Below, piece after piece: positions 34 through 9,154 of a stretch of 9,154 bases of DNA. Both the position numbers and the translations under genes were made by a program. The first letter of the stretch is position 1, and every line of letters starts with the position of its first letter. A model generated the notes under the pieces. That model worked only from the letters and a program-made list of their open reading frames with translations. It was not told the DNA's origin and searched no databases. The stretch comes from a virus. Lineage: Duplodnaviria > Heunggongvirae > Uroviricota > Caudoviricetes. Where the stretch lies: the IMG/VR virus record IMGVR_UViG_2695420871_000007. One strand, written 5' to 3'.

Positions 34-366
34 TTAGCGGGCATGAAAATGGCAAATAACGGTCAAACATCGTGGCGTTGACAGAGAAACACGATCCACC
101 CAGAATGTCTCACCATTAATGGTCAGCGTGTCACCACGCCGCACGGCACGAACCGTATCCGTCCGCACAAATAATGACGGGCTGCTTCCTTCAATACGGA
201 CCCCGCTACCGGCAAACCCCAGCGACTCCGGATCGTCAAAAACCCCCTGAACTTCGCTGCCACACTGTGCCCCCGAGGTGAACTGCGCACAGAGCCCCAT
301 CACTTCAACAATCGTTCTGTCCACCCCGGCAAGGGCAGCATCAAAGGAATTCTCAAAATCATGCAT
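34..366 (-). CDS. FII: Head-tail joining protein, lambda gpFII-like
   Basis: 110-aa ORF from the track. From recollection it aligns with lambda FII over most of its length, e.g. shared blocks GVFDDPE, GVR(I/V)EGSSPSLFVRTD and RRGDTLTI followed by FWVDRVS. The start codon overlaps the FI stop by 8 nt, the expected position after FI. Confidence 0.85.
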   Translation of the reverse strand: MHDFENSFDAALAGVDRTIVEVMGLCAQFTSGAQCGSEVQGVFDDPESLGFAGSGVRIEGSSPSLFVRTDTVRAVRRGDTLTINGETFWVDRVSLSTPRCLTVICHFHAR

Positions 367-727
367 AAACGGCCATTCCGCTCCTGACCATGTCTTTTGC
401 CACTGAGGGGGGCATCAGAATTACTCTGCCAGCATCAACATGCTCAACAGGCTCACCTGTTTCATCGTCAACACCGCACAGGTAAAAACACTTCAGAAGC
501 CTGATACGTTCCAGAATACCAACGTCATCCTCACCGGTGTGCCTGCATGCCTGCTCATGAACGGTATCATCAACATCTGCGATTTCATTTTCCGAGGCGC
601 AAACCTCCTCTTCCCACTCTGCCACACGCTGTGCGATATCCGCAGCACTCCCCGACATATCCGCCTCGCGCCCCAGCAGACCAGCCAGTTCACGAAGACG
701 TTTCTGATTTTCTTCTTTTGTTGCCAT
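359..727 (-). CDS. FI: DNA-packaging / head assembly protein, lambda gpFI-like; start moved to the internal ATG at 727
   Basis: The track ORF runs 359..775, but the lambda FI-like sequence begins at Met17 (MATKEENQKRLRELAG vs lambda MTKDELIARLRSLGE). That ATG (727..725) is preceded by a GGGAG Shine-Dalgarno-like motif. The longer start would run through the upstream hairpin and abut the E stop codon. Confidence 0.72.
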   Translation of the reverse strand: MATKEENQKRLRELAGLLGREADMSGSAADIAQRVAEWEEEVCASENEIADVDDTVHEQACRHTGEDDVGILERIRLLKCFYLCGVDDETGEPVEHVDAGRVILMPPSVAKDMVRSGMAVYA

Positions 728-741
728 ATCCAGCTCCCTGT

Positions 742-770
742 GAAAAAAACACGGGGGCATTTCGCCCCCG
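742..770 (-). terminator. Intrinsic-terminator-like hairpin plus U-tract between E and FI
   Basis: Minus-strand transcript reads CGGGGGC-GAAAU-GCCCCCG (7-bp all-GC stem at 764..770 and 752..758, 5-nt loop) followed directly by UGUUUUUUUC (751..742). It lies 8 nt after the E stop codon and just before the FI ribosome-binding site. Confidence 0.5.
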
Positions 771-778
771 CTCACGGA

Positions 779-1807
779 TTATTTCACCTGTACCACCACA
801 AACTCATCCGGATCCGGCAGCACCATCAGCGGCGCGGACTGCGTCATGGTGAATTCACAGGACGGATCGCCCACGGTCAGCCAGTGTTTCGGGTAACGGG
901 AAGAAGCCACCACTCCTTCAGACAACGCCTGTGCATCCTTAATGGCTCCATAGCAACGAATCCCCTCTGCCGCCGTATTCCCCAGCACCAGCGTGCCCTC
1001 CGGCAGATAACGTTTTTCGGTACCGTCCTCTGCCACATAAGACGTTTTCGCTACCACAATAGCCAGATCGCCGTAATACCCCTTGAAGGATACCACTGCG
1101 CCCAGATCTTTCACTGCCGTTTCGAGTTGTGAATTTGAACCGCGACGGGTATCCAGTTTTTCGCGGAAAAGCTTAAAGCCATTCAGCAGACGCCAGACGG
1201 TACCGTCCATAATGGCAATATTCACAAGACCACTGGCCTGATCACAGAAAAGGTCGATATCATATGTCGGGTCGAACGTGTCACGATCCTGTTTTGACCA
1301 CTCCTTACCGCTACCCTGTATGATGTTATTCTTCGTCGATCGGCCAAAATCGACTTCAATTTTCTCGAACTGGTCTCCTTCCATCGTATATTTGCCATAC
1401 AGCACGGCATTCACCGCCTGCATTTCTTCCACCTGCACAATAGCGTGCTCTTCCTGTTTGAGGTTATCAGTGATGATACGCAGACGACGGTAGGCCGGGT
1501 CGTTCAGCTGAGCCGGATCTTCACCGGGAAGGCGTTCAACCGCCTGCTGGTAATTAAATTCGTGTTTCGGCTTGACGTAGCCCGGACGTAACACGCGGGT
1601 TTCACCCCCACGATGACGCAGCACTTTTCCTTCAACGACCGGGGAGACATAGGCCGCCACCGGCGTTTTTCCGGTAATTTTGTCCAGCATCACCTCTTCG
1701 GTGTGGAAATTCACCGTACGGCGGAAAAACAGTTCCAGAAACAGCGCACGAAATTTAACTTTTTGTTCGGTATAACCGAGTAACTGGCGGGTCGTAAACA
1801 ATCCCAT
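779..1807 (-). CDS. E: Major capsid protein, lambda gpE-like
   Basis: 342-aa ORF, near-collinear with lambda E (341 aa) as I recall it. Long shared blocks include PGYVKPKHE, DPAYRR, AIVQVEEMQAV, KGKYTM, EKLDTRRGSNS(Q/E)LETAVKDLG, DPDEFV. An AAGGA Shine-Dalgarno motif sits about 9 nt upstream of the ATG. Confidence 0.93.
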   Translation of the reverse strand: MGLFTTRQLLGYTEQKVKFRALFLELFFRRTVNFHTEEVMLDKITGKTPVAAYVSPVVEGKVLRHRGGETRVLRPGYVKPKHEFNYQQAVERLPGEDPAQLNDPAYRRLRIITDNLKQEEHAIVQVEEMQAVNAVLYGKYTMEGDQFEKIEVDFGRSTKNNIIQGSGKEWSKQDRDTFDPTYDIDLFCDQASGLVNIAIMDGTVWRLLNGFKLFREKLDTRRGSNSQLETAVKDLGAVVSFKGYYGDLAIVVAKTSYVAEDGTEKRYLPEGTLVLGNTAAEGIRCYGAIKDAQALSEGVVASSRYPKHWLTVGDPSCEFTMTQSAPLMVLPDPDEFVVVQVK

Positions 1808-1835
1808 AAATCAGTTCCTTTCATTCAGAAATCAG

Positions 1836-1857
1836 TCAGGCCACCATGGTGGCCTGA
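1836..1857 (-). other. 22-bp perfect palindrome (GC-rich hairpin) in the D-E intergenic spacer
   Basis: tcaggccacca|tggtggcctga is a perfect inverted repeat. In RNA it gives a 9-bp stem with a CAUG loop, 8 nt after the D stop and ahead of the E ribosome-binding site. No strong U-tract follows, so it is not a canonical terminator. Confidence 0.4.
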
Positions 1858-1864
1858 TAACGTG

Positions 1865-2212
1865 TTACGGCAGAGCCGCGTGACTCAGGGCTGTGCCGGC
1901 AAAGGCATTTGCCTTTTTGTGTTCATCCACACTGTCAGGCCAGCGGATTGCCTCCGTCGCAAAGGTCCCCGACTTGTAATAGGTCAGCACCGTCTCTGTG
2001 CCTTCAAGCGGCAGTACCAGTATGCCAACCGCACTACCGGCTTTCTGTCCATCCCAGACCACCAGTTTCCCGGTGGCTTCATCCAGCATCAGGGGCGTCA
2101 GAGCCGGTGTTGCAGAAGAAATCCCGCTGCTGCCTGTGGCGGTATGAGCCGGATCATTACCAGCAAAAATACGTACTTCCGCACGCTGTTCAGTGATGGT
2201 TTTCGTCACCAT
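1865..2212 (-). CDS. D: Head decoration protein, lambda gpD-like
   Basis: 115-aa ORF. Recalled lambda D shares DPAHTAT, PA(L/M)TPLMLD, KLV(V/A)WDG, AAVGIL, YKSGTF and AFAGTA blocks. It sits between C and E as in lambda. A GAGG motif lies about 10 nt upstream of the ATG. Confidence 0.9.
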   Translation of the reverse strand: MVTKTITEQRAEVRIFAGNDPAHTATGSSGISSATPALTPLMLDEATGKLVVWDGQKAGSAVGILVLPLEGTETVLTYYKSGTFATEAIRWPDSVDEHKKANAFAGTALSHAALP

Positions 2213-2248
2213 TTTGTTAAAACCTCATATTGATGGTCAGCACTGACT

Positions 2249-2851
2249 TCATGGCATGGCCATGAGCATTTTCACGTCCGCATCACCGTCTGCTGACGTC
2301 TGTGACACGCCACCCCGCACCGCTGCCGGTGAATGATTCGCCATGAAATGTTCAAACAGGGCGGTTGTGGATGCAGAGACCGGTTCGGCCTTACCTGATC
2401 CCGCAGCCAGCACAGCCCGGGCGTTCTCCACGGTCATTCCCGGGCAGGCCGCCAGTTTTTCAGCCTGCGCTTCTGCCCCTTTTGCCTCATCCAGGGCCAT
2501 GATCTGATCACGAAGTGAGGGCCCGGCATCCGCCAGTGGTGCAGCCGCCAGGATCGGGCGTGCTTTTTCCACCGTCATCTCCGGCATCGCCGCCAGCGTT
2601 GCCGCCAGTTGTTCACGACCTTTCGCTTCTTCACACGCCATAATGCGATCGGCTTCACTCTGCGCGGATGCCACCGGCTGCTGTGGTGCCGCCGCGGCCA
2701 GAATCGCCCGGGCCTGTTCAATGCTCATGCCCTGTTGTCCTGCCAGCATCGTGGCAAGCTGTTCACGTCCTTTCGCTTCCTGACACGTCAGGATCCCCAT
2801 CACTCGCTGGTTCTCCTGCGCGGCAGCTTCCGTTGCAGTTAATTGCGGCAT
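2249..2851 (-). CDS. Nu3: Nested in-frame scaffolding protein, lambda Nu3-like, initiated inside C
   Basis: An in-frame ATG at 2851..2849 is preceded by a perfect AGGAGG Shine-Dalgarno motif with a 4-nt spacer, inside the C reading frame. The position corresponds to the lambda Nu3 start (ours GGTMPQLTAT vs lambda GGRMTKETQST). The 200-aa product carries the scaffold motif RxMGIL..EA.GRE..GMT...AR.ILAAA seen in lambda Nu3. Confidence 0.6.
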   Translation of the reverse strand: MPQLTATEAAAQENQRVMGILTCQEAKGREQLATMLAGQQGMSIEQARAILAAAAPQQPVASAQSEADRIMACEEAKGREQLAATLAAMPEMTVEKARPILAAAPLADAGPSLRDQIMALDEAKGAEAQAEKLAACPGMTVENARAVLAAGSGKAEPVSASTTALFEHFMANHSPAAVRGGVSQTSADGDADVKMLMAMP

Positions 2852-3754
2852 AGTGCCTCCTGTATCATGAGTGTTCAGCGCCGCAGCCATCACGCTGATG
2901 GCATCCGACGCATTGATTAATTCATCCGCCAGCCCGGCCTCAATGCCGGACTGACCTTCAAAAACGGCGGCCTCTGTTCCCGTGACCGCATCCACAGACA
3001 ACCCGGTATACATCGCCACTTTTTCGGCAAACATCCGGTGCGCCGCATCAATCCGCTGCTGCATATCCTGGCGAACCTCTGCCGGCAACGCTTCAAACTG
3101 ATTGCCATCCACCTTGTGCGCCCCGGCATAAATCAGCGTGATATCCACACCGGCCTGCGCCAGATGACCGGCATAGCTGACATGGCTCATCATCACGCCA
3201 ATGGAGCCGATACGGGATGTCTGGGTAACCAGCCGTCGGGAGCAGGCCGACGCCAGCAGCATGGCTGCAGAACAGGCCGTGTCATTGCACAGTGCCCAGA
3301 CCGGCTTCTGCTGACGGAGGCGGTAAATCATGTCAGCGCAGTCAAACGCGCCGGCGGCCTGCCCGCCCGGACTGTCAATGTCCAGCAGTACGCCCCGCAC
3401 CTGGCTATCTGCCATTGCCTGCTGAAGACAGGCGACAATGCCGTCATAGCCTGTCATTCCGGAAAATGGCCGCATACCGCCCAGCCGGTGCACCAGCGTG
3501 CCGGTCACCGGCAGTACAGCAATACCGTTCACCACCCGGTAAACACGGGCCGGTCGTTTACCTCCGGCCATGTACTCGTCCGTTTCAGCCAGCATTCCGG
3601 GAGCATCAAGCTGTACCTGTTGTTGTGGTACCGAAAGACTTGCTGCCCCCATCTCGCGCCCGAGCGCGCAAAAGAAAACCCGCGCATAGGCGGGCTCCAG
3701 AAGCAGCGGTTCATTGAATGCTGCGGCAATAATGTGTGAAAGATTACGTCTCAC
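2249..3754 (-). CDS. C: Prohead protease / minor capsid protein, lambda gpC-like (S49/ClpP-type N-terminal domain fused to a scaffold-type C-terminal domain)
   Basis: 501-aa ORF. The N-terminal two thirds are collinear with recalled lambda C (AFNEPLLLEPAYARVFFCAL, MNGIAVLPV(T/S)GTLV, SGMTGY(D/N)GI, QQA block, GAFDCAD, KPVWAL, SRRLVTQT(S/A)R(I/T)GSIGVMM, ITLIY(A/S)G(A/S)HKVDGN, AYTGLSV, TEAAV). The C-terminal part is scaffold-like and longer than in lambda because of an internal triplication. Confidence 0.88.
   Translation of the reverse strand: MRRNLSHIIAAAFNEPLLLEPAYARVFFCALGREMGAASLSVPQQQVQLDAPGMLAETDEYMAGGKRPARVYRVVNGIAVLPVTGTLVHRLGGMRPFSGMTGYDGIVACLQQAMADSQVRGVLLDIDSPGGQAAGAFDCADMIYRLRQQKPVWALCNDTACSAAMLLASACSRRLVTQTSRIGSIGVMMSHVSYAGHLAQAGVDITLIYAGAHKVDGNQFEALPAEVRQDMQQRIDAAHRMFAEKVAMYTGLSVDAVTGTEAAVFEGQSGIEAGLADELINASDAISVMAAALNTHDTGGTMPQLTATEAAAQENQRVMGILTCQEAKGREQLATMLAGQQGMSIEQARAILAAAAPQQPVASAQSEADRIMACEEAKGREQLAATLAAMPEMTVEKARPILAAAPLADAGPSLRDQIMALDEAKGAEAQAEKLAACPGMTVENARAVLAAGSGKAEPVSASTTALFEHFMANHSPAAVRGGVSQTSADGDADVKMLMAMP
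2393..2806 (-). repeat. Three tandem in-frame copies of a roughly 40-47 aa scaffold motif within C/Nu3
   Basis: Protein repeats: RVMGILTCQEAKGREQLATMLAGQQGMSIEQARAILAAAAPQ; RIMACEEAKGREQLAATLAAMPEMTVEKARPILAAAPLADAG; QIMALDEAKGAEAQAEKLAACPGMTVENARAVLAAGSG. The first two are also visibly similar at DNA level (ctgttcacgtcctttcgcttc near 2760..2780 vs ttgttcacgacctttcgcttc near 2610..2630). Lambda Nu3, as I recall it, has one copy. Confidence 0.65.
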
Positions 3755-5336
3755 GTGGTGTTGTCTCCTCTTCCGGCCTGCGACTCTCCGCTATCTGCTG
3801 CTGATACGCCTGCGCTATCCACACCGGGCGTGAGAGTCCGGCTTTTTCCCGCTCTGCAGATTCCCTGACCTGCTGGCGGAAAATGTCCTGATAATCCTCG
3901 CCCATCAGCGCCAGCTCTTTCTCATACGTGCTCAGTCCGGCCTCAATGCGCATCACTGATTCCTGGACTTCCTTGAGCCCGTCAATGGCCATTCTTCCGG
4001 CACCAATCCACTCTGCCCGTGACCAGGCTGATCGCGCCTGATAAAAATCAAAACGAGCCCGTGGCGGACGAATAATCCCCCGAAGAAGTGCCTCTTCCAG
4101 CCAGCAGGAAAACATCTGCGTGGCCAGTCGGGCCGCAATAAATTTTCGCCGCCCCATAAAATAGCGCCACGACTCATTGGCGGAGGCGCGGGCACTTGAG
4201 TAACTGACCTTCGAGTAATCACGGGACAACTGTTCGTAGGAAACGCCAAGACCGGCGGCGATATACCGCAGCAGCGCCTGTTCAAGCGCCGAAAATCCAT
4301 TGTCTGAATCCTGCGCTGTCTGCAGTTTCAGATCATCACCAGGGAAAAGGTGCGGAATTTTGACACCGCCCAGCGTCACGTGATTCGTGTCATACCAGCT
4401 GGAGAACTTCTCCAGAATATTAATAAGCGGATTATCCTTCTGCCCCTGCGGCGCACCGGCGATATATTCAAAGGCCTTTTCGGTATCCAGTTCACTTTCA
4501 ATCGTCGCTGCATACATCGCCTTCACTATGGCCGACTGAAGCTGTGTTGCCTGCAGGGAATCGAGCATCTTCAGCCGTTCCATGACGCTGTAAAACTGAT
4601 TGGCCCCACGGGTCTGCCCGTCCTCCACCGGCTCGAAAATATGCAGCATGGCCGGACGCCCGGTGGGTAGTTCACGCGGGATCCGTTCCCATCGTCCACT
4701 CCCGGAGCGAGGAAAATCATCCTCACAGATATGGTACGCAACGGCACGGCCATATCGATCGACCTCCACACCGGCCCGCAGAAAACGGTTCCCGATACCG
4801 TGTCCTGGCGTGTCCACCCGTTTCGGACTCACGGCTTTAAAACGCGTACGGAATAACTGCGTGGTTTCCGTATCCCAGACCGGCTGCACAAAGATTTCGC
4901 CGTTAAACGCATGAACGCCCACACCTTCACGGATAAATTCCGTAAACGTGCGTTTCCCTTCCACGTCGATCTCACCAAACATCCCTTCTGCGTATTCTGA
5001 CCAGGCCGCCTCCACCTCATCGACAAAACTTTTTGCCGCGGTCTCCCGCATCCCCAGCCAGCGCCAGTTCGGACGGTAGCTGATAAGAAACATATGCCCG
5101 ACAATGTGATCCTTATGCAGGGCCACCGCATTGGCCGCTATCCCGTTATTGCGCACCAGATCATCTGCCCGGGCATTCCCCAGACGCAACGCGGGCAGCA
5201 GGGCCGCATCGGCACTCTGCGAGGGTGGCAACCACTCCGCCATTTGCCCGCCAAATCCTGCGCCGCCCCCGTTGTAGCTGAGGCTCTCCCGAAGCGGAAC
5301 GCCGTTCACATCAATCAGGACAGGCGTTCGTTTCAT
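3744..5336 (-). CDS. B: Portal protein, lambda gpB-like
   Basis: 530-aa ORF (lambda B is about 533 aa). Shared blocks with recalled lambda B include GNARADDLVRNNG, FEPVEDGQTRGAN(Q/V)FYSVME, KMLD(S/T)LQ, QLQSAIVKAMYAATIESELDT, LRYIAAGLGVSYEQLSR, ARASANESW, GRMAIDGLKEVQE, IEAGLSTYEKE. The start overlaps the W stop (ATGA). Confidence 0.93.
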   Translation of the reverse strand: MKRTPVLIDVNGVPLRESLSYNGGGAGFGGQMAEWLPPSQSADAALLPALRLGNARADDLVRNNGIAANAVALHKDHIVGHMFLISYRPNWRWLGMRETAAKSFVDEVEAAWSEYAEGMFGEIDVEGKRTFTEFIREGVGVHAFNGEIFVQPVWDTETTQLFRTRFKAVSPKRVDTPGHGIGNRFLRAGVEVDRYGRAVAYHICEDDFPRSGSGRWERIPRELPTGRPAMLHIFEPVEDGQTRGANQFYSVMERLKMLDSLQATQLQSAIVKAMYAATIESELDTEKAFEYIAGAPQGQKDNPLINILEKFSSWYDTNHVTLGGVKIPHLFPGDDLKLQTAQDSDNGFSALEQALLRYIAAGLGVSYEQLSRDYSKVSYSSARASANESWRYFMGRRKFIAARLATQMFSCWLEEALLRGIIRPPRARFDFYQARSAWSRAEWIGAGRMAIDGLKEVQESVMRIEAGLSTYEKELALMGEDYQDIFRQQVRESAEREKAGLSRPVWIAQAYQQQIAESRRPEEETTPRET

Positions 5337-5539
5337 AACCTCACTCCCAGCGGACGACGGCGACGCCGGGTTGTCCCCAGTACCGACTCCGCATCATTGA
5401 TCGCCCGGTTAAGCTCATCCAGAGAAGCCGCCGTATATTCAATTCTGCGACCATCTTTCTGGACAGACACCACCCGTTTACCGGTTAATAAATCAAGGCG
5501 CGCCTGACGCAGCGCCTGCAGTTCAGCGACTGTAACCAT
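5333..5539 (-). CDS. W: Head-tail connector / head completion protein, lambda gpW-like
   Basis: 68-aa ORF. It resembles recalled lambda W: L.TGKRV(V/A)(S/T)VQKDGRR(I/V)E(Y/F)TA.S. and the C-terminal RRRxxP(L/A)G. It sits between A and B as in lambda. Confidence 0.85.
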   Translation of the reverse strand: MVTVAELQALRQARLDLLTGKRVVSVQKDGRRIEYTAASLDELNRAINDAESVLGTTRRRRRPLGVRL

Positions 5540-7451
5540 TCACTCCTCCGGACAGCTTCGCTGCCAGTTCTTTAAGGGGTGGCCGGGTCGTCTCTTCTTC
5601 CCGGGATTTTGCCAGTACAGCCAGATCAAGCTGCCAGCGTTGCACGGACACACGTAATGCCGCGTAGGCATACACCAGGCAGTCCAGCGCTTCGTTACGC
5701 CGCTTTTTGTTATCCCACAGCAGACGCATCTTTCCTTTTTCCCACTTCTCCACAAGCTCTTCCGCCACCAGTTGCTGCGCCTCTGTCTGCGAAAAAATCT
5801 CCGGCTCATCAGGAAAACGGATGGCATACGACGTGGCTTCATCCGCAGGCGTGGGATCGGCTTTCATACGGGCATAGAGAATTTCTTTTGCGGTGTCCGT
5901 CCCCACTTCGCACAGATACACGCCCCGCTGATTGCGGGTTTTTGGCATGGTGATCACCGGCTTGCCATAAACAGATGCACCTTTTACCGGCAGCACCCGG
6001 AAAACACCGTGTTTTTTTGACCTCTGATAAACGATTTCGCCATCGATCCCCCCGGTGTCCCAGCAGACACGGGAAATGGTCATCTCGGTGCCATCCGCAT
6101 GGCGGTATTTTTTGTTGATCGCCGCATCCACACGTAACAGCGTCTCTTCCTCATCAGGACGCCCCATAATGATGATTTTATCCACCAGAAAAGCTTCCTC
6201 TCCCGGTGCCCATCCCCAGACATACATCTCAAAACGGTTTCGCTGCGAGTCAATGCCCGCCGTCAGATAAACCACCCGGGCAGGTACCGCCGCCGTATAA
6301 TGCACGACCTTATCCATCAGCACCTGGTGATCAAGTTTTTCGCCCACGGCCTCTTCCCAGGTCTCGCCCAGCGTGGTGTTCACAAAGGTTTTCACGCCGT
6401 TGGGATCTTTCAGTGCATCCAGCCAGTCATAGACTATCTGTACCCAGGTGGTAAACGGACTGTACGCCGTCCAGATATGGAACGTGATGGAGCGCGGCGG
6501 CGGAATTTCATTACCCGCAGCGCTGAAAAACGTCAGACCGTCACGGGTCCACATGCCCGTGTTTTCACAGATCCACCGCCCGTTGCTCTGGTCCAGTTCA
6601 GACTGATGGATCACGCAGCCATGATGTTCACAGAGGTAGAAAACACTTTCGGGACTGTCCTTCTCCCATTTAAGCCCAAAAGGCGTGGACTCATCGCCAA
6701 ATTTCAGATACTGCTCCTCCCCACAGTGTGGGCAGGGCACATAAAAACGCATAAAATGCGCCGACTCGTTGGCCGCTTTTTCGATCTGGCAGGTGCCTTT
6801 GATTTTAGGCGTCGAGCCGCGAATGGATTTGGGCCATACAGAGCCCTCAATACGTTTATCCCCAAGCAGGGTTGGCGACCCCTCTTTTTCGACATCCGGT
6901 TCGAACGAGGAAAGTTCGTCATAGCAGACCACGTCCACGGATTTTTCACGGTAGTTTTTAGCGGCAGCCCCGCCCAGGCACCAGAAGCCCACGCCCGATG
7001 AAAAACGTTTCAGCGTGAGGGTATTATCACGATGTTTACGACCCAGCCATGGGGAAAGGTCTTTCAGGCATGGCACATCCCGAATCGTCGCCTCCACGTG
7101 AGACTTCATAAAATCTTCAGCGGCAGAATCCGTGGGCTGAAAAAGCAGACTGTTTCGTGATTTATGCTCAATAAAATACCCGACCACCCCCAGCAACATC
7201 TTTGTATAGCCAACACGGGCAGATTTAATCAGGTTAACCGTGCGAACCTGGTCGTTACCCATACAGTTCATAATGGCGACCTGGAACGGCAGCGTTTTCC
7301 ATTCTCCCTCACCATATGAAGATTCTTTAGGCAGATAATAATTTTGATCAGCCCATTCAACTGGCGTCACCGGCAATGCCCTTATCAGGGGCTGTAATGC
7401 TGTTGTGACAGCACTCATCATATTATTCAGTTGTTGCTCTGATATATTCAT
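5523..7451 (-). CDS. A: Terminase large subunit, lambda gpA-like; start moved to the internal ATG at 7451
   Basis: The track ORF is 661 aa from 7508, but lambda-type A begins MNIS..., which here is Met20 (ATG at 7451..7449), giving 642 aa versus about 641 in lambda. Extensive shared blocks: VEWAD.NYYLPKES, TLPFQ.AIMN.MG, SARVGY(T/S)KMLLGV, KKHRDNTLT.KRF, GFWCLGG.AAKNYREKSVDV, EGSPT(L/F)LGDKRIEGSVWPKSIRGSTPK, CPHCGEEQYLKFGD, FHIWTAYSPFTTWVQIV, KTFVNTTLGETWE, YLTAGIDSQ, CWDTGGID, KGASVYGKPV, WD.KKRRNEALDC.VYA.AALR.S.QRWQLDL. Confidence 0.93.
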   Translation of the reverse strand: MNISEQQLNNMMSAVTTALQPLIRALPVTPVEWADQNYYLPKESSYGEGEWKTLPFQVAIMNCMGNDQVRTVNLIKSARVGYTKMLLGVVGYFIEHKSRNSLLFQPTDSAAEDFMKSHVEATIRDVPCLKDLSPWLGRKHRDNTLTLKRFSSGVGFWCLGGAAAKNYREKSVDVVCYDELSSFEPDVEKEGSPTLLGDKRIEGSVWPKSIRGSTPKIKGTCQIEKAANESAHFMRFYVPCPHCGEEQYLKFGDESTPFGLKWEKDSPESVFYLCEHHGCVIHQSELDQSNGRWICENTGMWTRDGLTFFSAAGNEIPPPRSITFHIWTAYSPFTTWVQIVYDWLDALKDPNGVKTFVNTTLGETWEEAVGEKLDHQVLMDKVVHYTAAVPARVVYLTAGIDSQRNRFEMYVWGWAPGEEAFLVDKIIIMGRPDEEETLLRVDAAINKKYRHADGTEMTISRVCWDTGGIDGEIVYQRSKKHGVFRVLPVKGASVYGKPVITMPKTRNQRGVYLCEVGTDTAKEILYARMKADPTPADEATSYAIRFPDEPEIFSQTEAQQLVAEELVEKWEKGKMRLLWDNKKRRNEALDCLVYAYAALRVSVQRWQLDLAVLAKSREEETTRPPLKELAAKLSGGVNGYSR

Positions 7452-7932
7452 CGAGTAAATCCGGTAATTTATCCCCTGCCCGCGCACACTGATTTGCCCC
7501 CTTCGCAATAAGGGTTTTCAGATGGTCAAGATGGCGTGGTGTTAAATCAGGAAACTGTCGTTGCATGGATAAAGGGATGGAATCAAGCGTACTGGATAAC
7601 GCCATTGCCAGCTTGCTGAGGGCAAAAATACAGAACCCGGTGTCAATAAGTTTTCCTTTTGACACCTCATTTTTTAACTGCTGTGTAACAGCCTGTTCTG
7701 CTGTCAGTTCCCATCTGGCAATAAGCAATTTTTCCTCATAGTCGTCTTCGCTATCGCCATCAGGCACATCGTTTTTACTTCTTCTCAGATACGATATGTA
7801 AAAATCGCGCCAGGCATCCAGATCCAGTTGCCCTCGCTTATTCGATATCGGGGCACCCGGCAATTTCTGCAATCTGCGAAGCTGGCGATCGGTCAGACTT
7901 AAATGCCTGGCAACTTCAGTCTGCGTAGCCAC
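7423..7932 (-). CDS. Nu1: Terminase small subunit, lambda gpNu1-like (N-terminal HTH DNA-binding domain, C-terminal gpA-interaction region)
   Basis: 169-aa ORF with an apparent GTG start at 7932..7930; a GAGG motif lies 6 nt upstream. The C-terminal half matches recalled lambda Nu1 (T(G/A)FC.F.LS..A....S.LD..PLS.QR.FP.L..RH.D.LK and ...LL.EYI). The N-terminal part diverges but keeps the pattern of a DNA-binding helix-turn-helix. The 3' end overlaps the A start by about 29 nt, as in lambda. Confidence 0.85.
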   Translation of the reverse strand: MATQTEVARHLSLTDRQLRRLQKLPGAPISNKRGQLDLDAWRDFYISYLRRSKNDVPDGDSEDDYEEKLLIARWELTAEQAVTQQLKNEVSKGKLIDTGFCIFALSKLAMALSSTLDSIPLSMQRQFPDLTPRHLDHLKTLIAKGANQCARAGDKLPDLLDEYIRATTE

Positions 7933-7972
7933 TCCTCACCTCGCAAAAACTCTCACCTCACAATCACAACAA

Positions 7973-8048
7973 AACCGGTCATGTCCGGTTCACAGAAGAC
8001 CTGTTTTTATATTTTTCATATAGTTAACTTGAAGATAAACCGGACATG
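7973..8048. repeat. cosB-position repeat set: three copies of an 11-bp motif AACCGGWCATG (candidate terminase small-subunit binding elements) flanking an AT-rich tract
   Basis: AACCGGTCATG at 7973..7983 (top strand), AACCGGACATG at 7980..7990 (bottom strand, overlapping the first to form a near-palindrome) and AACCGGACATG at 8038..8048 (top strand). The interval 7991..8037 is AT-rich. They sit between cosN and the Nu1 start, where lambda has R3-I1-R2-R1. Confidence 0.5.
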
Positions 8049-8130
8049 GATCCAGGAAAATTTTCATAAATAGCGAAAACCCGCGAGGTCGCCGCCCCGT
8101 AACCGGTCGGATCGCCGGAAAGGACTCACG
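8045..8130. other. Cohesive-end site (cos): cosN 12-nt overhang at 8086..8097 with lambda-like flanks
   Basis: The reverse complement of 8045..8097 reads GGGCGGCGACCTCGCGGGTTTTCGCTATTTATGAAAATTTTCC, which as I recall is the first 43 nt of the lambda genome (cosN overhang GGGCGGCGACCT plus the proximal flank). The far side (8098..8130, reverse complement ...GGCGATCCGACCGGTTACG) also resembles my recollection of the lambda right terminus (...GATCCGACAGGTTACG). Confidence 0.85.
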
Positions 8131-8132
8131 AA

Positions 8133-8149
8133 ATGATAATTATTATCAT
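8133..8149. promoter_or_regulatory. 17-bp perfect palindrome ATGATAAT-t-ATTATCAT, Fur-box-like (GATAAT/ATTATC hexamers); candidate operator
   Basis: Perfect 8-bp arms around a central T. TGATAATtATTATC matches the 3' 14 nt of the classic 19-bp Fur consensus GATAATGATAATCATTATC at 13 of 14 positions by my hand count. It is followed by TATATAAG, a possible -10 region. Function is not established. Confidence 0.3.
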
Positions 8150-8303
8150 CTATATAAGGTTTATCACAACATGTGTGTACGCCATCAAACCACGAGAAAT
8201 AATCAATTATGACGCAGGTATCGTATTAATTGATCTGCATCAAATTAACGTAAAAGCAACTTCAGATAATACAAATCAGCAACACTGAATATGGGGAAAC
8301 ATT

Positions 8304-8489
8304 ATGTCATCAAAGAACAGAACCCGCAGAACAACAACCCGCAACATCCGATTTCCAAACCAGATGATTGAACAAATTAACATCGCTCTTGATCTGAAAG
8401 GTTCAGGAAACTTTTCAGCGTGGGTTATTGAAGCCTGCAGAAGAAGGCTGTCAACAGAGAGTTCGGGTATGAATTACATAATTAAGTAA
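8304..8489 (+). CDS. Small basic ribbon-helix-helix-like protein (61 aa), possibly of the YlcI/YnfO type found next to nohD/nohA in E. coli cryptic prophages; likely DNA-binding accessory (moron) gene
   Basis: The ORF has a GGGGAA Shine-Dalgarno-like motif 5 nt upstream of the ATG. After a basic N-terminal tail (KNRTRRTTTR) comes IRFPNQMIEQINIALDL....GNFSAWVIEACRRRL, the strand-helix-helix pattern of Arc/CopG-type repressors. Its position next to cos and Nu1, on the opposite strand to the late genes, matches where ylcI and ynfO lie in DLP12 and Qin. Family assignment is from memory only. Confidence 0.6.
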   Translation: MSSKNRTRRTTTRNIRFPNQMIEQINIALDLKGSGNFSAWVIEACRRRLSTESSGMNYIIK

Positions 8490-9018: not shown

Positions 9019-9154
9019 TTATCCCCGCACACTCGCGCAGAGGAGTCTCCCTGTCGGGCTGCGGTCTCTGTTAATGAGGGAATACAGCGACGATACGGCG
9101 CATTGAGGTGTACTGGCAATAGCGGACACTACCATTTGTTCTTTTTTTAAGCAG
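9019..9154 (-). CDS. Possible 3' end of a minus-strand gene entering from beyond the window (unidentified)
   Basis: One minus-strand frame is open from the window edge to a TAA at 9021..9019 (...KKEQMVVSAIASTPQCAVSSLYSLINRDRSPTGRLLCASVRG*). This region is more GC-rich than the adjacent AT-rich tract. No recognisable homology; it could equally be non-coding. Confidence 0.2.
   Translation of the reverse strand, partial: CLKKEQMVVSAIASTPQCAVSSLYSLINRDRSPTGRLLCASVRG

What the first reader, a model, noticed from the sequence alone, without database searches (positions are those of the whole stretch)
7933..8130. Lambda-type cosN joined to a cosB-position region built from AACCGGWCATG repeats
The 12-nt cohesive end and about 30 nt on each side match lambda as I recall it, but the sequence between cosN and Nu1 then departs from the lambda R3-I1-R2-R1 sequence I remember. 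In its place are three copies of an 11-bp motif (7973..7983, 7980..7990 inverted, 8038..8048) around an AT-rich tract that could be a bend or IHF site. The Nu1 N-terminal DNA-binding region is also the most diverged part of that protein. Together this suggests a packaging-specificity variant with a lambda cleavage site but a different terminase anchoring site, like the lambda versus phage 21 case. The motif also recurs in part on the other side of cosN (AACCGGTC at 8101..8108).
Basis: partly seen in the sequence, partly recalled or inferred. Interest (0 to 1): 0.5.

Follow-up and report, generated by a model that had tools for sequence, protein, structure and literature searches.

The report
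Distinct terminase-binding site beside lambda-type cos
This is the DNA-packaging start site of a phage-21-like prophage: it keeps lambda's cutting site but uses different docking repeats matched to a different terminase DNA-binding domain, a common and apparently unstudied packaging type, present here as a damaged copy.

Summary
On the minus strand the window holds a lambda-type cos. The cohesive end GGGCGGCGACCT lies at 8097..8086, and phage bp 1-43 are identical to lambda. Downstream is a cosB with the lambda/21 layout but different repeats. CATGTCCGGTT sits at bp 50-60, the R3 position. An IHF-like site sits at bp 72-84. An inverted copy sits at bp 108-118, the R2 position, and CATGACCGGTT at bp 115-125.

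The head genes are 93% identical to phage 21. Only the cassette of cosB, TerS and the first ~27 codons of the large subunit (TerL) is replaced.

Relatives in five enteric genera keep TCCGGTT at bp 54-60 and its inverted copy at bp 108. TerS residue 20 tracks the base before the core: Arg with G, any other residue with T (4 versus 17 helix types, no exception).

The class occurs in 1168 of 5426 complete E. coli genomes.

This copy looks decayed. It has a rare 30-bp deletion of one repeat, a cosQ change (GGGTCCT to GAGTCCT) and an IS600 nearby.

The parts
8121..8127 (-). cosQ position, reading GAGTCCT instead of the conserved GGGTCCT. The changed base is window 8126.
   Evidence: 81 of 81 relatives with the same TerS have GGGTCCT at this offset, -30..-24 from the cohesive end. 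That cosQ is a highly conserved 7-bp site is stated in PMC4669245.
8086..8097 (-). cosN cohesive-end sequence GGGCGGCGACCT. Phage bp 1 is window 8097, so phage bp N is window 8098-N.
   Evidence: Identical to lambda, 21 and 434. Nicking itself was not tested.
8055..8085 (-). Segment between cosN and cosB (bp 13-43), identical to lambda. It includes TATGAAAATTTTCC, which is kept in all relatives.
   Evidence: 100% identity to lambda over bp 3-43. Conserved in L011-L017.
8038..8048 (-). R3-equivalent TerS site CATGTCCGGTT, bp 50-60.
   Evidence: 0 of 11 positions vary among 19 unique E. coli variants. CCGGTT lies at bp 55-56 in every enteric relative. Same position as the annotated R3 of 21 and 434.
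8014..8026 (-). I1-equivalent IHF-like site TAACTATATGAAA, bp 72-84, inside a 74% A+T tract.
   Evidence: 2 mismatches here. Relatives have 0-1 mismatches at the same bp 72-84 (TAACCAATTGATT, TAACATATTGATT). Lambda-type I1 is annotated at bp 74-86.
7980..7990 (-). R2-equivalent site, inverted relative to R3. It reads AACCGGACATG on the phage top strand, bp 108-118. In this window it is the fusion of R2 and R2' left by the 30-bp deletion.
   Evidence: Inverted AACCGG lies at bp 108-109 in all enteric relatives. The long form has a second copy 30 bp downstream.
7973..7983 (-). R1-like direct copy CATGACCGGTT, bp 115-125 here and bp 145-155 in the long form. It overlaps R2 by CATG, giving the near-palindrome AACCGGaCATGaCCGGTT.
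   Evidence: It is less conserved than R3 and R2 (3 of 9 remaining positions vary) and is absent in variant L033 and in the Salmonella and Citrobacter relatives.
7423..7932 (-). Terminase small subunit (TerS), 169 aa, GTG start, identical to WP_000235436.1. The DNA-binding domain is residues 1-55 (window 7768..7932) and the predicted recognition helix is residues 15-22 (DRQLRRLQ).
7370..8056 (-). Exchanged specificity cassette relative to phage 21: cosB, the TerS gene and the first ~27 codons of TerL.
   Evidence: blastn against phage 21 gives 93% identity for window 84..7369 and 95% for 8057..8097, with nothing in between. TerL protein is 88% identical to 21 gp2 from residue 16 onward.
5523..7451 (-). 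Terminase large subunit (gpA family), ATG at 7451.
   Evidence: Pfam GpA_ATPase and GpA_nuclease. Start codon checked.

Best explanation
The interval is the cos site of a phage-21-like lambdoid prophage. Its packaging-specificity cassette belongs to a separate class from lambda, 21, N15/Monarch and Gifsy-1.

**Proposed mechanism (inferred by analogy with lambda).** Dimers of the TerS winged helix-turn-helix domain bind the R sites, (C)AT(G/T)TCCGGTT. One site is at bp 50-60 and an inverted one at bp 108-118. An IHF-induced bend at about bp 72-84 brings the two together. The bound TerS then positions TerL to nick the lambda-identical cosN. Within the class, TerS residue 20 probably reads the base just 5' of TCCGGTT: Arg with G, other residues with T.

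**This copy.** It is a degraded version. Slippage or recombination between two direct AACCGGACATG copies removed 30 bp, fusing R2 with R2' and moving R1 three helical turns closer. cosQ also carries a private G-to-A change.

**Shown here:** sequence, positions, conservation, covariation, predicted fold, cassette boundaries and abundance.

**Inferred:** TerS and IHF binding, the Arg-G contact, lack of cross-packaging with lambda or 21, and the functional state of this copy.
For: 1. **Position.** The motif copies sit where R3 and R2 are annotated in 21 and 434.
2. **Conservation.** E. coli, Klebsiella, Salmonella, Citrobacter and Enterobacter relatives (60-88% TerS identity) all keep CCGGTT at bp 55-56 and inverted AACCGG at bp 108-109, while the intervening sequence diverges. 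Within E. coli, R3 varies at 0 of 11 positions, R2 at 2 of 11 and R2' at 1 of 11, against 11 of 19 in the R2-R2' spacer.
3. **Covariation.** All 4 helix types with Arg20 have GTCCGGTT and all 17 with D/N/K/S/T at residue 20 have TTCCGGTT. In the loci that carry one, the inverted copy has the same base at that position as R3. All five helix types without TCCGGTT upstream depart from the consensus helix; three lack Arg16. The window TerS (Arg20) is closer overall to a D20 protein (81%) than to other Arg20 proteins (60-63%).
4. **IHF site.** A consensus match lies at bp 72-84 in 9 of 11 relatives, perfect in 3.
6. **Cassette.** The exchange runs exactly from bp 42 to TerL codon ~27 on a 93% phage-21 backbone.
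7. **Viability of the class.** PhiR12 phages deposited with E. coli K-12 and C as hosts carry the long-form cosB and a 99.4% identical TerS.
8. **Rarity of the deletion.** The junction occurs in 1 of 5426 complete E. coli genomes and 1 of 78 IMG/VR loci.
Against: - No binding, nicking or packaging data exist for this class in anything I could search.
- In the window itself the IHF-like site has 2 mismatches, which is no better than background.
- The covariation counts helix types that are phylogenetically related, so the effective sample is smaller than 21.
- The third site is inconsistent among relatives: inverted at bp 138 or 151, direct at bp 147-150, or absent. Its role is therefore unclear.
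Confidence: 0.8

Rival explanations
1. The site in this window no longer works as a packaging site. It is a decaying remnant in a defective prophage, and the 30-bp deletion and the cosQ change are inactivating lesions rather than tolerated variants. This rivals only the claim that the window's copy is functional, not the identification of the class.
For: Three base changes are private to the window at positions invariant in 80-81 relatives: cosQ -29, bp 44 and bp 62. The deletion is rare. An IS600 end lies at window ~9112-9154 in the prophage right arm. The only complete E. coli genome with the same junction (F3113) has a frameshifted TerL and a truncated capsid gene.
Against: All head-gene reading frames in the window are intact. 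The deletion keeps R3, I1 and R2 at their normal distances from cosN. In lambda, R1 has only an accessory role (PMC4669245).
Confidence: 0.45
2. It is simply phage 21 specificity with drifted R sites. 21-type terminase and this TerS would cross-recognise each other's cosB.
For: The R sites share the 5' half CATGTC with the 21 consensus CATGTCGGnCCT. The head genes are 93% identical to phage 21.
Against: TerS residues 1-63 show no alignable similarity to 21 gp1. The 3' half of the site differs (CGGTT against GGnCC). There is no DNA similarity across bp 42-790. The two types occur as separate populations in E. coli, 1194 and 1168 genomes.
Confidence: 0.08
3. The repeats are operators for some other DNA-binding protein, for example a regulator of late genes or of the divergent ylcI-like gene, and not terminase sites.
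For: The overlapping pair AACCGGaCATGaCCGGTT resembles a palindromic operator.
Against: The distance to cosN is fixed across genera. The sites co-vary with the TerS helix. In simple forms the motif lies directly between cosN and the TerS start, with no other gene nearby, for example Aeromonas phage phiARM81ld bp 48-68.
Confidence: 0.04
4. The three copies are a chance repeat.
For: 2 of 200 shuffles reach three matches.
Against: Conservation of position and sequence in hundreds of relatives.
Confidence: 0.01

Closest known systems
Phage 21 cos and gp1/gp2 terminase (OL657228.1)
   Same: Identical cohesive end. The R3-I1-R2-R1 layout has the same coordinates. TerL from residue ~16 onward, portal, protease, decoration, capsid, FI and FII genes are 93% identical at the DNA level.
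   Different: The R sequence is CATGTCGGnCCT against CATGTCCGGTT. The TerS DNA-binding domain is unalignable and the TerS C-terminal part is only 40% identical. The first ~15-27 TerL residues differ.
Lambda and 434 cos with gpNu1
   Same: bp 1-43 and the cosQ-side flank. Positions of R3, I1 and R2. The winged helix fold of the DNA-binding domain. The Nu1-type C-terminal region is 46% identical.
   Different: The R sequence is CGTTTCC(G/T)TTCT. The recognition helix differs, and the wing loop is about 5 residues longer in lambda (alignment A2).
N15 (simple cosB) and Monarch-type (complex cosB) pair
   Same: The same dichotomy exists inside this class. Enteric members have the complex R3-I1-R2 form. 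Aeromonas phage phiARM81ld and many metagenomic relatives have only (C)ATTTCCGGTTCCGGTT next to a TerS start at about bp 78-80.
   Different: The N15/Monarch R sequence is GGTTGTTGTTT, and the DNA-binding domain is MAVLLNKSDMASSLGISVQAFDKWGV.
Gifsy-1 cos
   Same: A complex cosB behind a lambda-like cosQ and cosN.
   Different: The R sequence is CAGATCC(G/T)TTC, and the DNA-binding domain is of the lambda/21 sequence type.
PICI Rpp proteins (RppC, PDB 6HN7/6HLK)
   Different: Rpp is a separate small protein that heterodimerises with helper TerS. Here the domain is part of a full TerS with its own TerL. Sequence identity is 16%, and a profile search of the PDB found nothing.

Membership tests
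Lambda-like cos site (cosQ-cosN-cosB) | 12-base cohesive-end sequence with strong identity to lambda | tested here: met
   GGGCGGCGACCT at 8097..8086, identical to lambda, 21 and 434. Actual nicking cannot be tested here.
Lambda-like cos site (cosQ-cosN-cosB) | Conserved 7-bp cosQ GGGTCCT about 17 bp upstream of cosN | tested here: not met
   The window reads GAGTCCT (8127..8121), while 81 of 81 relatives read GGGTCCT. The element is present but point-mutated in this copy.
Lambda-like cos site (cosQ-cosN-cosB) | Complex cosB: R3 near bp 50-65, inverted R2 near bp 107-123, with an IHF site between them | tested here: met
   Motif at bp 50-60, inverted copy at bp 108-118, IHF-like 13-mer at bp 72-84. 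Compare the annotations of 21 and 434.
Lambda-like cos site (cosQ-cosN-cosB) | IHF actually binds and bends I1 | not testable with these tools
   Only consensus matches are available: 2 mismatches in the window and 0-1 in six relatives.
Nu1/gp1-type small terminase | Nu1-type oligomerisation and TerL-binding region | tested here: met
   Pfam PF07471 at 67.9 bits (cut-off 30) over residues 49-150. PHROG 57 covers the full length.
Nu1/gp1-type small terminase | N-terminal MerR-like winged helix-turn-helix DNA-binding domain | tested here: met
Lambda packaging specificity | R sites of type CGTTTCC(G/T)TTCT and a lambda-type recognition helix | tested here: not met
   Alignment A1 shows no similarity beyond bp 43. 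The TerS N-terminus does not align.
Phage 21 packaging specificity | R sites of type CATGTCGGnCCT and the gp1 DNA-binding domain | tested here: not met
   Only the CATGTC half is shared. The domains do not align. No DNA similarity to 21 across bp 42-790.
N15/Monarch and Gifsy-1 specificities | Their R sequences and DNA-binding domains | tested here: not met
   GGTTGTTGTTT and CAGATCC.TTC respectively, with different domains.
Proposed TCCGGTT class | TerS binds the motif, and the class does not cross-package with lambda or 21 | not testable with these tools
   Supported only indirectly by conservation and covariation.

The most novel reading that the evidence does not exclude
This may be an uncharacterised further packaging-specificity family of lambda-like cos phages. 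In E. coli it is as common as the phage 21 type. Recognition would rest on a TCCGGTT core, and a single residue (TerS Arg20 against Asp/Asn/other) would switch the preferred base at bp 53 (G against T). That would give at least two mutually discriminating sub-specificities. It would help explain how several lambdoid prophages in one O157-type genome avoid packaging each other's DNA.
Probability: 0.45. Interest if true: 0.55.

Novelty: new variant of a known kind. Interest (0 to 1): 0.4.

Why it matters
In lambda-like phages the TerS-cosB pair sets packaging specificity. Only the lambda, 21 and N15 specificities had been documented experimentally as of 2015 (PMC4669245).

This class is found in about a fifth of complete E. 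coli genomes, often more than once per genome, including Shiga-toxin-producing lineages. Knowing its recognition site bears on three questions:
- which prophages, satellites and cos plasmids can be mobilised by which helper;
- how co-resident prophages stay insulated from one another;
- how the specificity cassette moves as a unit between head-gene modules.

The Arg20/G53 covariation gives a concrete protein-DNA contact that could be tested cheaply. The practical value is modest: additional orthogonal cos/terminase pairs for in vivo or in vitro packaging.

Tried and rejected
- **Phage 21 cosB.** I first suspected the region was phage 21's cosB. Reading phage 21 itself (OL657228.1) showed different R sites and an unalignable TerS N-terminus.
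- **IHF consensus.** A scan of the window alone was uninformative, with 63 matches against 66 expected. Only the comparative positions helped.
- **Sequence searches for the DNA-binding domain.** These gave nothing useful. Pfam gave only a sub-threshold Sigma70_r3 hit. NCBIfam gave none. A PDB profile search gave no relevant hit.
- **Genome-contig scan.** A single-protein query returned only 4 loci, two of them IS600-truncated genes.
- **First IMG/VR scan.** It returned only 99%-identical loci. These were useful for counting cosB forms but not for diversity, so further scans used divergent members.
- **Literature.** Searches for the motif string, PhiR12 and phiARM81ld found nothing relevant. 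Two key Feiss papers (PMC5006951, PMC2815929) are not held, so a prior description in subscription journals cannot be excluded.
- **Self-corrections.** An early note placed cosN at 8083-8094 and the deletion at 31 bp. Both were corrected, to 8086-8097 and 30 bp.

Full report
**What is in the window.** The packaging genes lie on the minus strand:
- TerS at 7932..7423, a 169-aa protein with a GTG start;
- TerL at 7451..5523;
- then W, portal, protease/scaffold, decoration, capsid, FI and FII homologues.

Read on the minus strand, the cohesive-end sequence GGGCGGCGACCT is at 8097..8086. Phage bp N therefore equals window 8098-N. Phage bp 3-43 are 100% identical to lambda J02459. The other side of cosN is 88-89% identical to lambda-type phages over about 380 bp, window 8055..8438. 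Identity to lambda stops at bp 43 (alignment A1).

**The observation.** They are the only matches to AACCGGWCATG with up to 1 mismatch in the window, against 0.38 expected; 2 of 200 shuffles reach three. In phage coordinates the layout is:

| Element | Sequence (phage top strand) | Phage bp |
|---|---|---|
| Direct copy | CATGTCCGGTT | 50-60 |
| Inverted copy | AACCGGACATG | 108-118 |
| Direct copy | CATGACCGGTT | 115-125 |

The last two overlap by CATG. The stretch between the outer copies is 74% A+T.

**Comparison with known cos sites, read directly.** Phage 21 (OL657228.1) and 434 (OL657226.1) are in the phage collection with annotated subsites: R3 at 50-65, I1 at 74-86, R2 at 107-123 (inverted) and R1 at 150-166. 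The R sequences and DNA-binding domains of the known classes are as follows.

| Class | R sequence | TerS DNA-binding domain |
|---|---|---|
| Phage 21 | CATGTCGGnCCT | lambda/21 sequence type |
| 434 / lambda type | CGTTTCC(G/T)TTCT | lambda/21 sequence type |
| Gifsy-1 | CAGATCC(G/T)TTC | lambda/21 sequence type |
| N15 and Monarch-like (E. albertii) | GGTTGTTGTTT | MAVLLNKSDMASS... |
| This window | CATGTCCGGTT | MATQTEVARHLSLTDRQLRRLQK... |

The window's repeats match none of the known classes. They share only the CATGTC half with phage 21.

The window TerS aligns to 21 gp1 only over residues 64-166 (40%) and to 434 Nu1 over 73-164 (46%). Pfam Phage_Nu1 covers residues 49-150. The N-terminal 60 residues have no significant sequence match in Pfam, NCBIfam or the PDB.

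So the domain is predicted to be the same MerR-like winged helix as gpNu1, despite having no sequence similarity to it. Helix 15-22 (DRQLRRLQ) takes the place of the recognition helix, both in alignment A2 and in the model.

**A cassette on a phage 21 backbone.** blastn of the window against the first 9.5 kb of phage 21 gives 93% identity from 21 bp 791 to 8082 (window 7369..84) and 95% over bp 1-41. There is nothing in between. TerL is 88% identical to gp2 from residue 16 on. The exchanged unit is therefore cosB, the TerS gene and the first ~27 TerL codons (window 7370..8056). In lambda this set of parts determines cosB recognition and the TerS-TerL fit; the domain roles are described in PMC9026076.

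**Comparative evidence that the repeats are the TerS sites.** Full-length homologues at 60-88% identity occur in Klebsiella, Salmonella, Citrobacter and Enterobacter. I fetched their loci.

- *Fixed positions.* Every enteric relative has GGGTCCT, a cosN-like GC-rich segment and (T/C)TA(T/C)GAAAATTT(T/C). CCGGTT follows at bp 55-56 and an inverted AACCGG at bp 108-109, while the sequence between diverges. The E. coli rows need +48 because the script picked a later anchor.
- *Variation within E. coli.* Among 19 unique long-form variants, R3 varies at 0 of 11 positions, R2 at 2 of 11 and R2' at 1 of 11. The R2-R2' spacer varies at 11 of 19.
- *IHF site.* The best IHF-consensus match falls at bp 72-84 in 9 of 11 loci. 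It is perfect in three (TAACCAATTGATT, TAACATATTGATT). Lambda-type I1 is at 74-86.
- *Simple forms.* More distant relatives have a simple cosB. They include Aeromonas phage phiARM81ld, whose record starts at its cohesive end. One or two direct (C)ATTTCCGGTT(CCGGTT) units lie at about bp 50-68, with the TerS start at about bp 78-80. This parallels the N15/Monarch pair.

**Covariation.** I tallied all loci with a MATQxE(V/I)A-type TerS.
- The 4 helix types with Arg at residue 20 all have GTCCGGTT.
- The 17 types with D, N, K, S or T at residue 20 all have TTCCGGTT.
- In the loci that carry an inverted copy, it has the same base at that position as R3.
- All five helix types without TCCGGTT upstream depart from the consensus helix; three of them (such as QPAVAKLL) lack Arg16.

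The split does not follow overall similarity. The window TerS (Arg20) is 81% identical to a D20 Klebsiella protein but only 60-63% identical to Arg20 proteins from Enterobacter and Citrobacter. I infer that residue 20 reads bp 53. The helix types are not independent samples, so this is a hypothesis and not a demonstration.

**Abundance and viability.** A class-specific query (cosB plus the TerS N-terminal part, without cosN) hits 1168 of 5426 complete E. coli genomes, with a median of 2 places per genome. The phage 21 equivalent hits 1194. IMG/VR holds at least 383 relatives. The exact TerS sequence is on at least 1000 contigs. Five PhiR12 phage records, deposited with E. coli K-12 or C as hosts, carry the long-form cosB and a 99.4% identical TerS. 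The class therefore supports phage growth.

**What is unusual about this copy.** The common form has a fourth repeat: a second inverted AACCGGACATG (R2') exactly 30 bp downstream of R2, abutting R1. The window lacks one 30-bp period, which is the expected product of slippage or recombination between the two direct copies.
- R3, I1 and R2 keep their distances from cosN.
- R1 and the TerS start move 30 bp closer.
- The junction is found in 1 of 5426 complete E. coli genomes: O157:H7 F3113, in a prophage with a frameshifted TerL and a truncated capsid gene. It is also in 1 of 78 IMG/VR loci.
- The window is only 96.4% identical to the F3113 locus, so it is a different prophage.

The window also has three base changes at positions invariant in 80-81 relatives: cosQ GGGTCCT to GAGTCCT (window 8126), bp 44 G to T (8054), and bp 62 C to A (8036).

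From my own knowledge of Wieczorek and Feiss (2001), not checked here, the 7 bp of lambda cosQ are needed for packaging termination. An IS600 end lies at about 9112-9154. Together these point to relaxed selection, although all head-gene frames in the window are intact.

**The partial motif beyond cosN.** AACCGGTC at 8101..8108 differs from lambda's sequence by one base. It lies in a variable stretch: only 13 of 81 relatives have ACCGGTT there and 25 have ACAGGTT. I treat it as chance.

**Comparison with what is known, and novelty.** The architecture and presumed mechanism are those of lambda-type cos sites. The R sequence, the sequence family of the DNA-binding domain, the shorter wing loop and the extra inverted site differ.

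PMC4669245 (2015) states that only the lambda, 21 and N15 specificities had been documented. PMC9026076 (2022) lists lambda, phi80, 21, Gifsy-1 and N15 as the cosB examples. I found no paper containing the motif or describing this class. However, several relevant subscription papers are not held.

I rate it a new variant of a known kind, of moderate interest. A specialist would have expected further specificities. The abundance of this class, the clean cassette boundary and the one-residue/one-base covariation make it readily testable.

Noticed in passing
window 8121..8127 (changed base at 8126): cosQ reads GAGTCCT, whereas 81 of 81 relatives with the same TerS read GGGTCCT. In lambda this 7-bp site is needed for packaging termination, so this copy may be termination-defective.
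   Followed up: partly
window 8054 and 8036: Two further substitutions private to the window at positions invariant in 80 relatives: bp 44 G to T, and bp 62 C to A just 3' of the R3 motif.
   Followed up: partly
window ~9112..9154: End of an IS600 (IS3-family) element interrupts the prophage right arm. The same IS end truncates the homologous TerS gene at residue 68 in Shigella flexneri SFBU1023 and E. coli ECMA0423 (L007, L008).
   Followed up: partly
window 7935..7946 and 7952..7963: Direct repeat CTCACCTC(G/A)CAA, which is TTG(C/T)GAGGTGAG on the coding strand, between R1 and the TerS start. IMG/VR variant L024 lacks 17 bp between the two copies, a second repeat-mediated deletion in this leader.
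   Followed up: no
window ~7370 (TerL codon ~27): Sharp mosaic junction inside TerL. Downstream of it the window is 93% identical to phage 21; upstream there is no DNA similarity. This fits co-transfer of the TerS-binding N-terminus of TerL with TerS.
   Followed up: yes
L009 and L010 (Escherichia albertii and Escherichia sp.): TerS with an N15/Monarch-type DNA-binding domain and a complex GGTTGTTGTTT cosB, joined from about residue 26 to a body 71% identical to this family. This shows that the DNA-binding domain plus cosB can be exchanged separately from the rest of TerS.
   Followed up: no
window 8304..8489 (+): A 61-aa DUF3950 (YlcI/YnfO family) gene lies just beyond the cosQ side and is transcribed away from cos.
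   Followed up: no
L018, L021, L110-L115, L152-L161: Relatives in Aeromonas phage phiARM81ld and in unassigned metagenome contigs have a simple cosB. It is a tandem TTCCGGTTCCGGTT right before a TerS start at about bp 78-80, without an inverted copy or an IHF-like site, analogous to N15 against Monarch.
   Followed up: partly
L033 (IMG/VR variant, 2 loci): A long-form variant with the same TerS keeps R3, R2 and R2' but replaces the R1-to-start segment with unrelated sequence. This suggests the direct R1 copy is dispensable.
   Followed up: no
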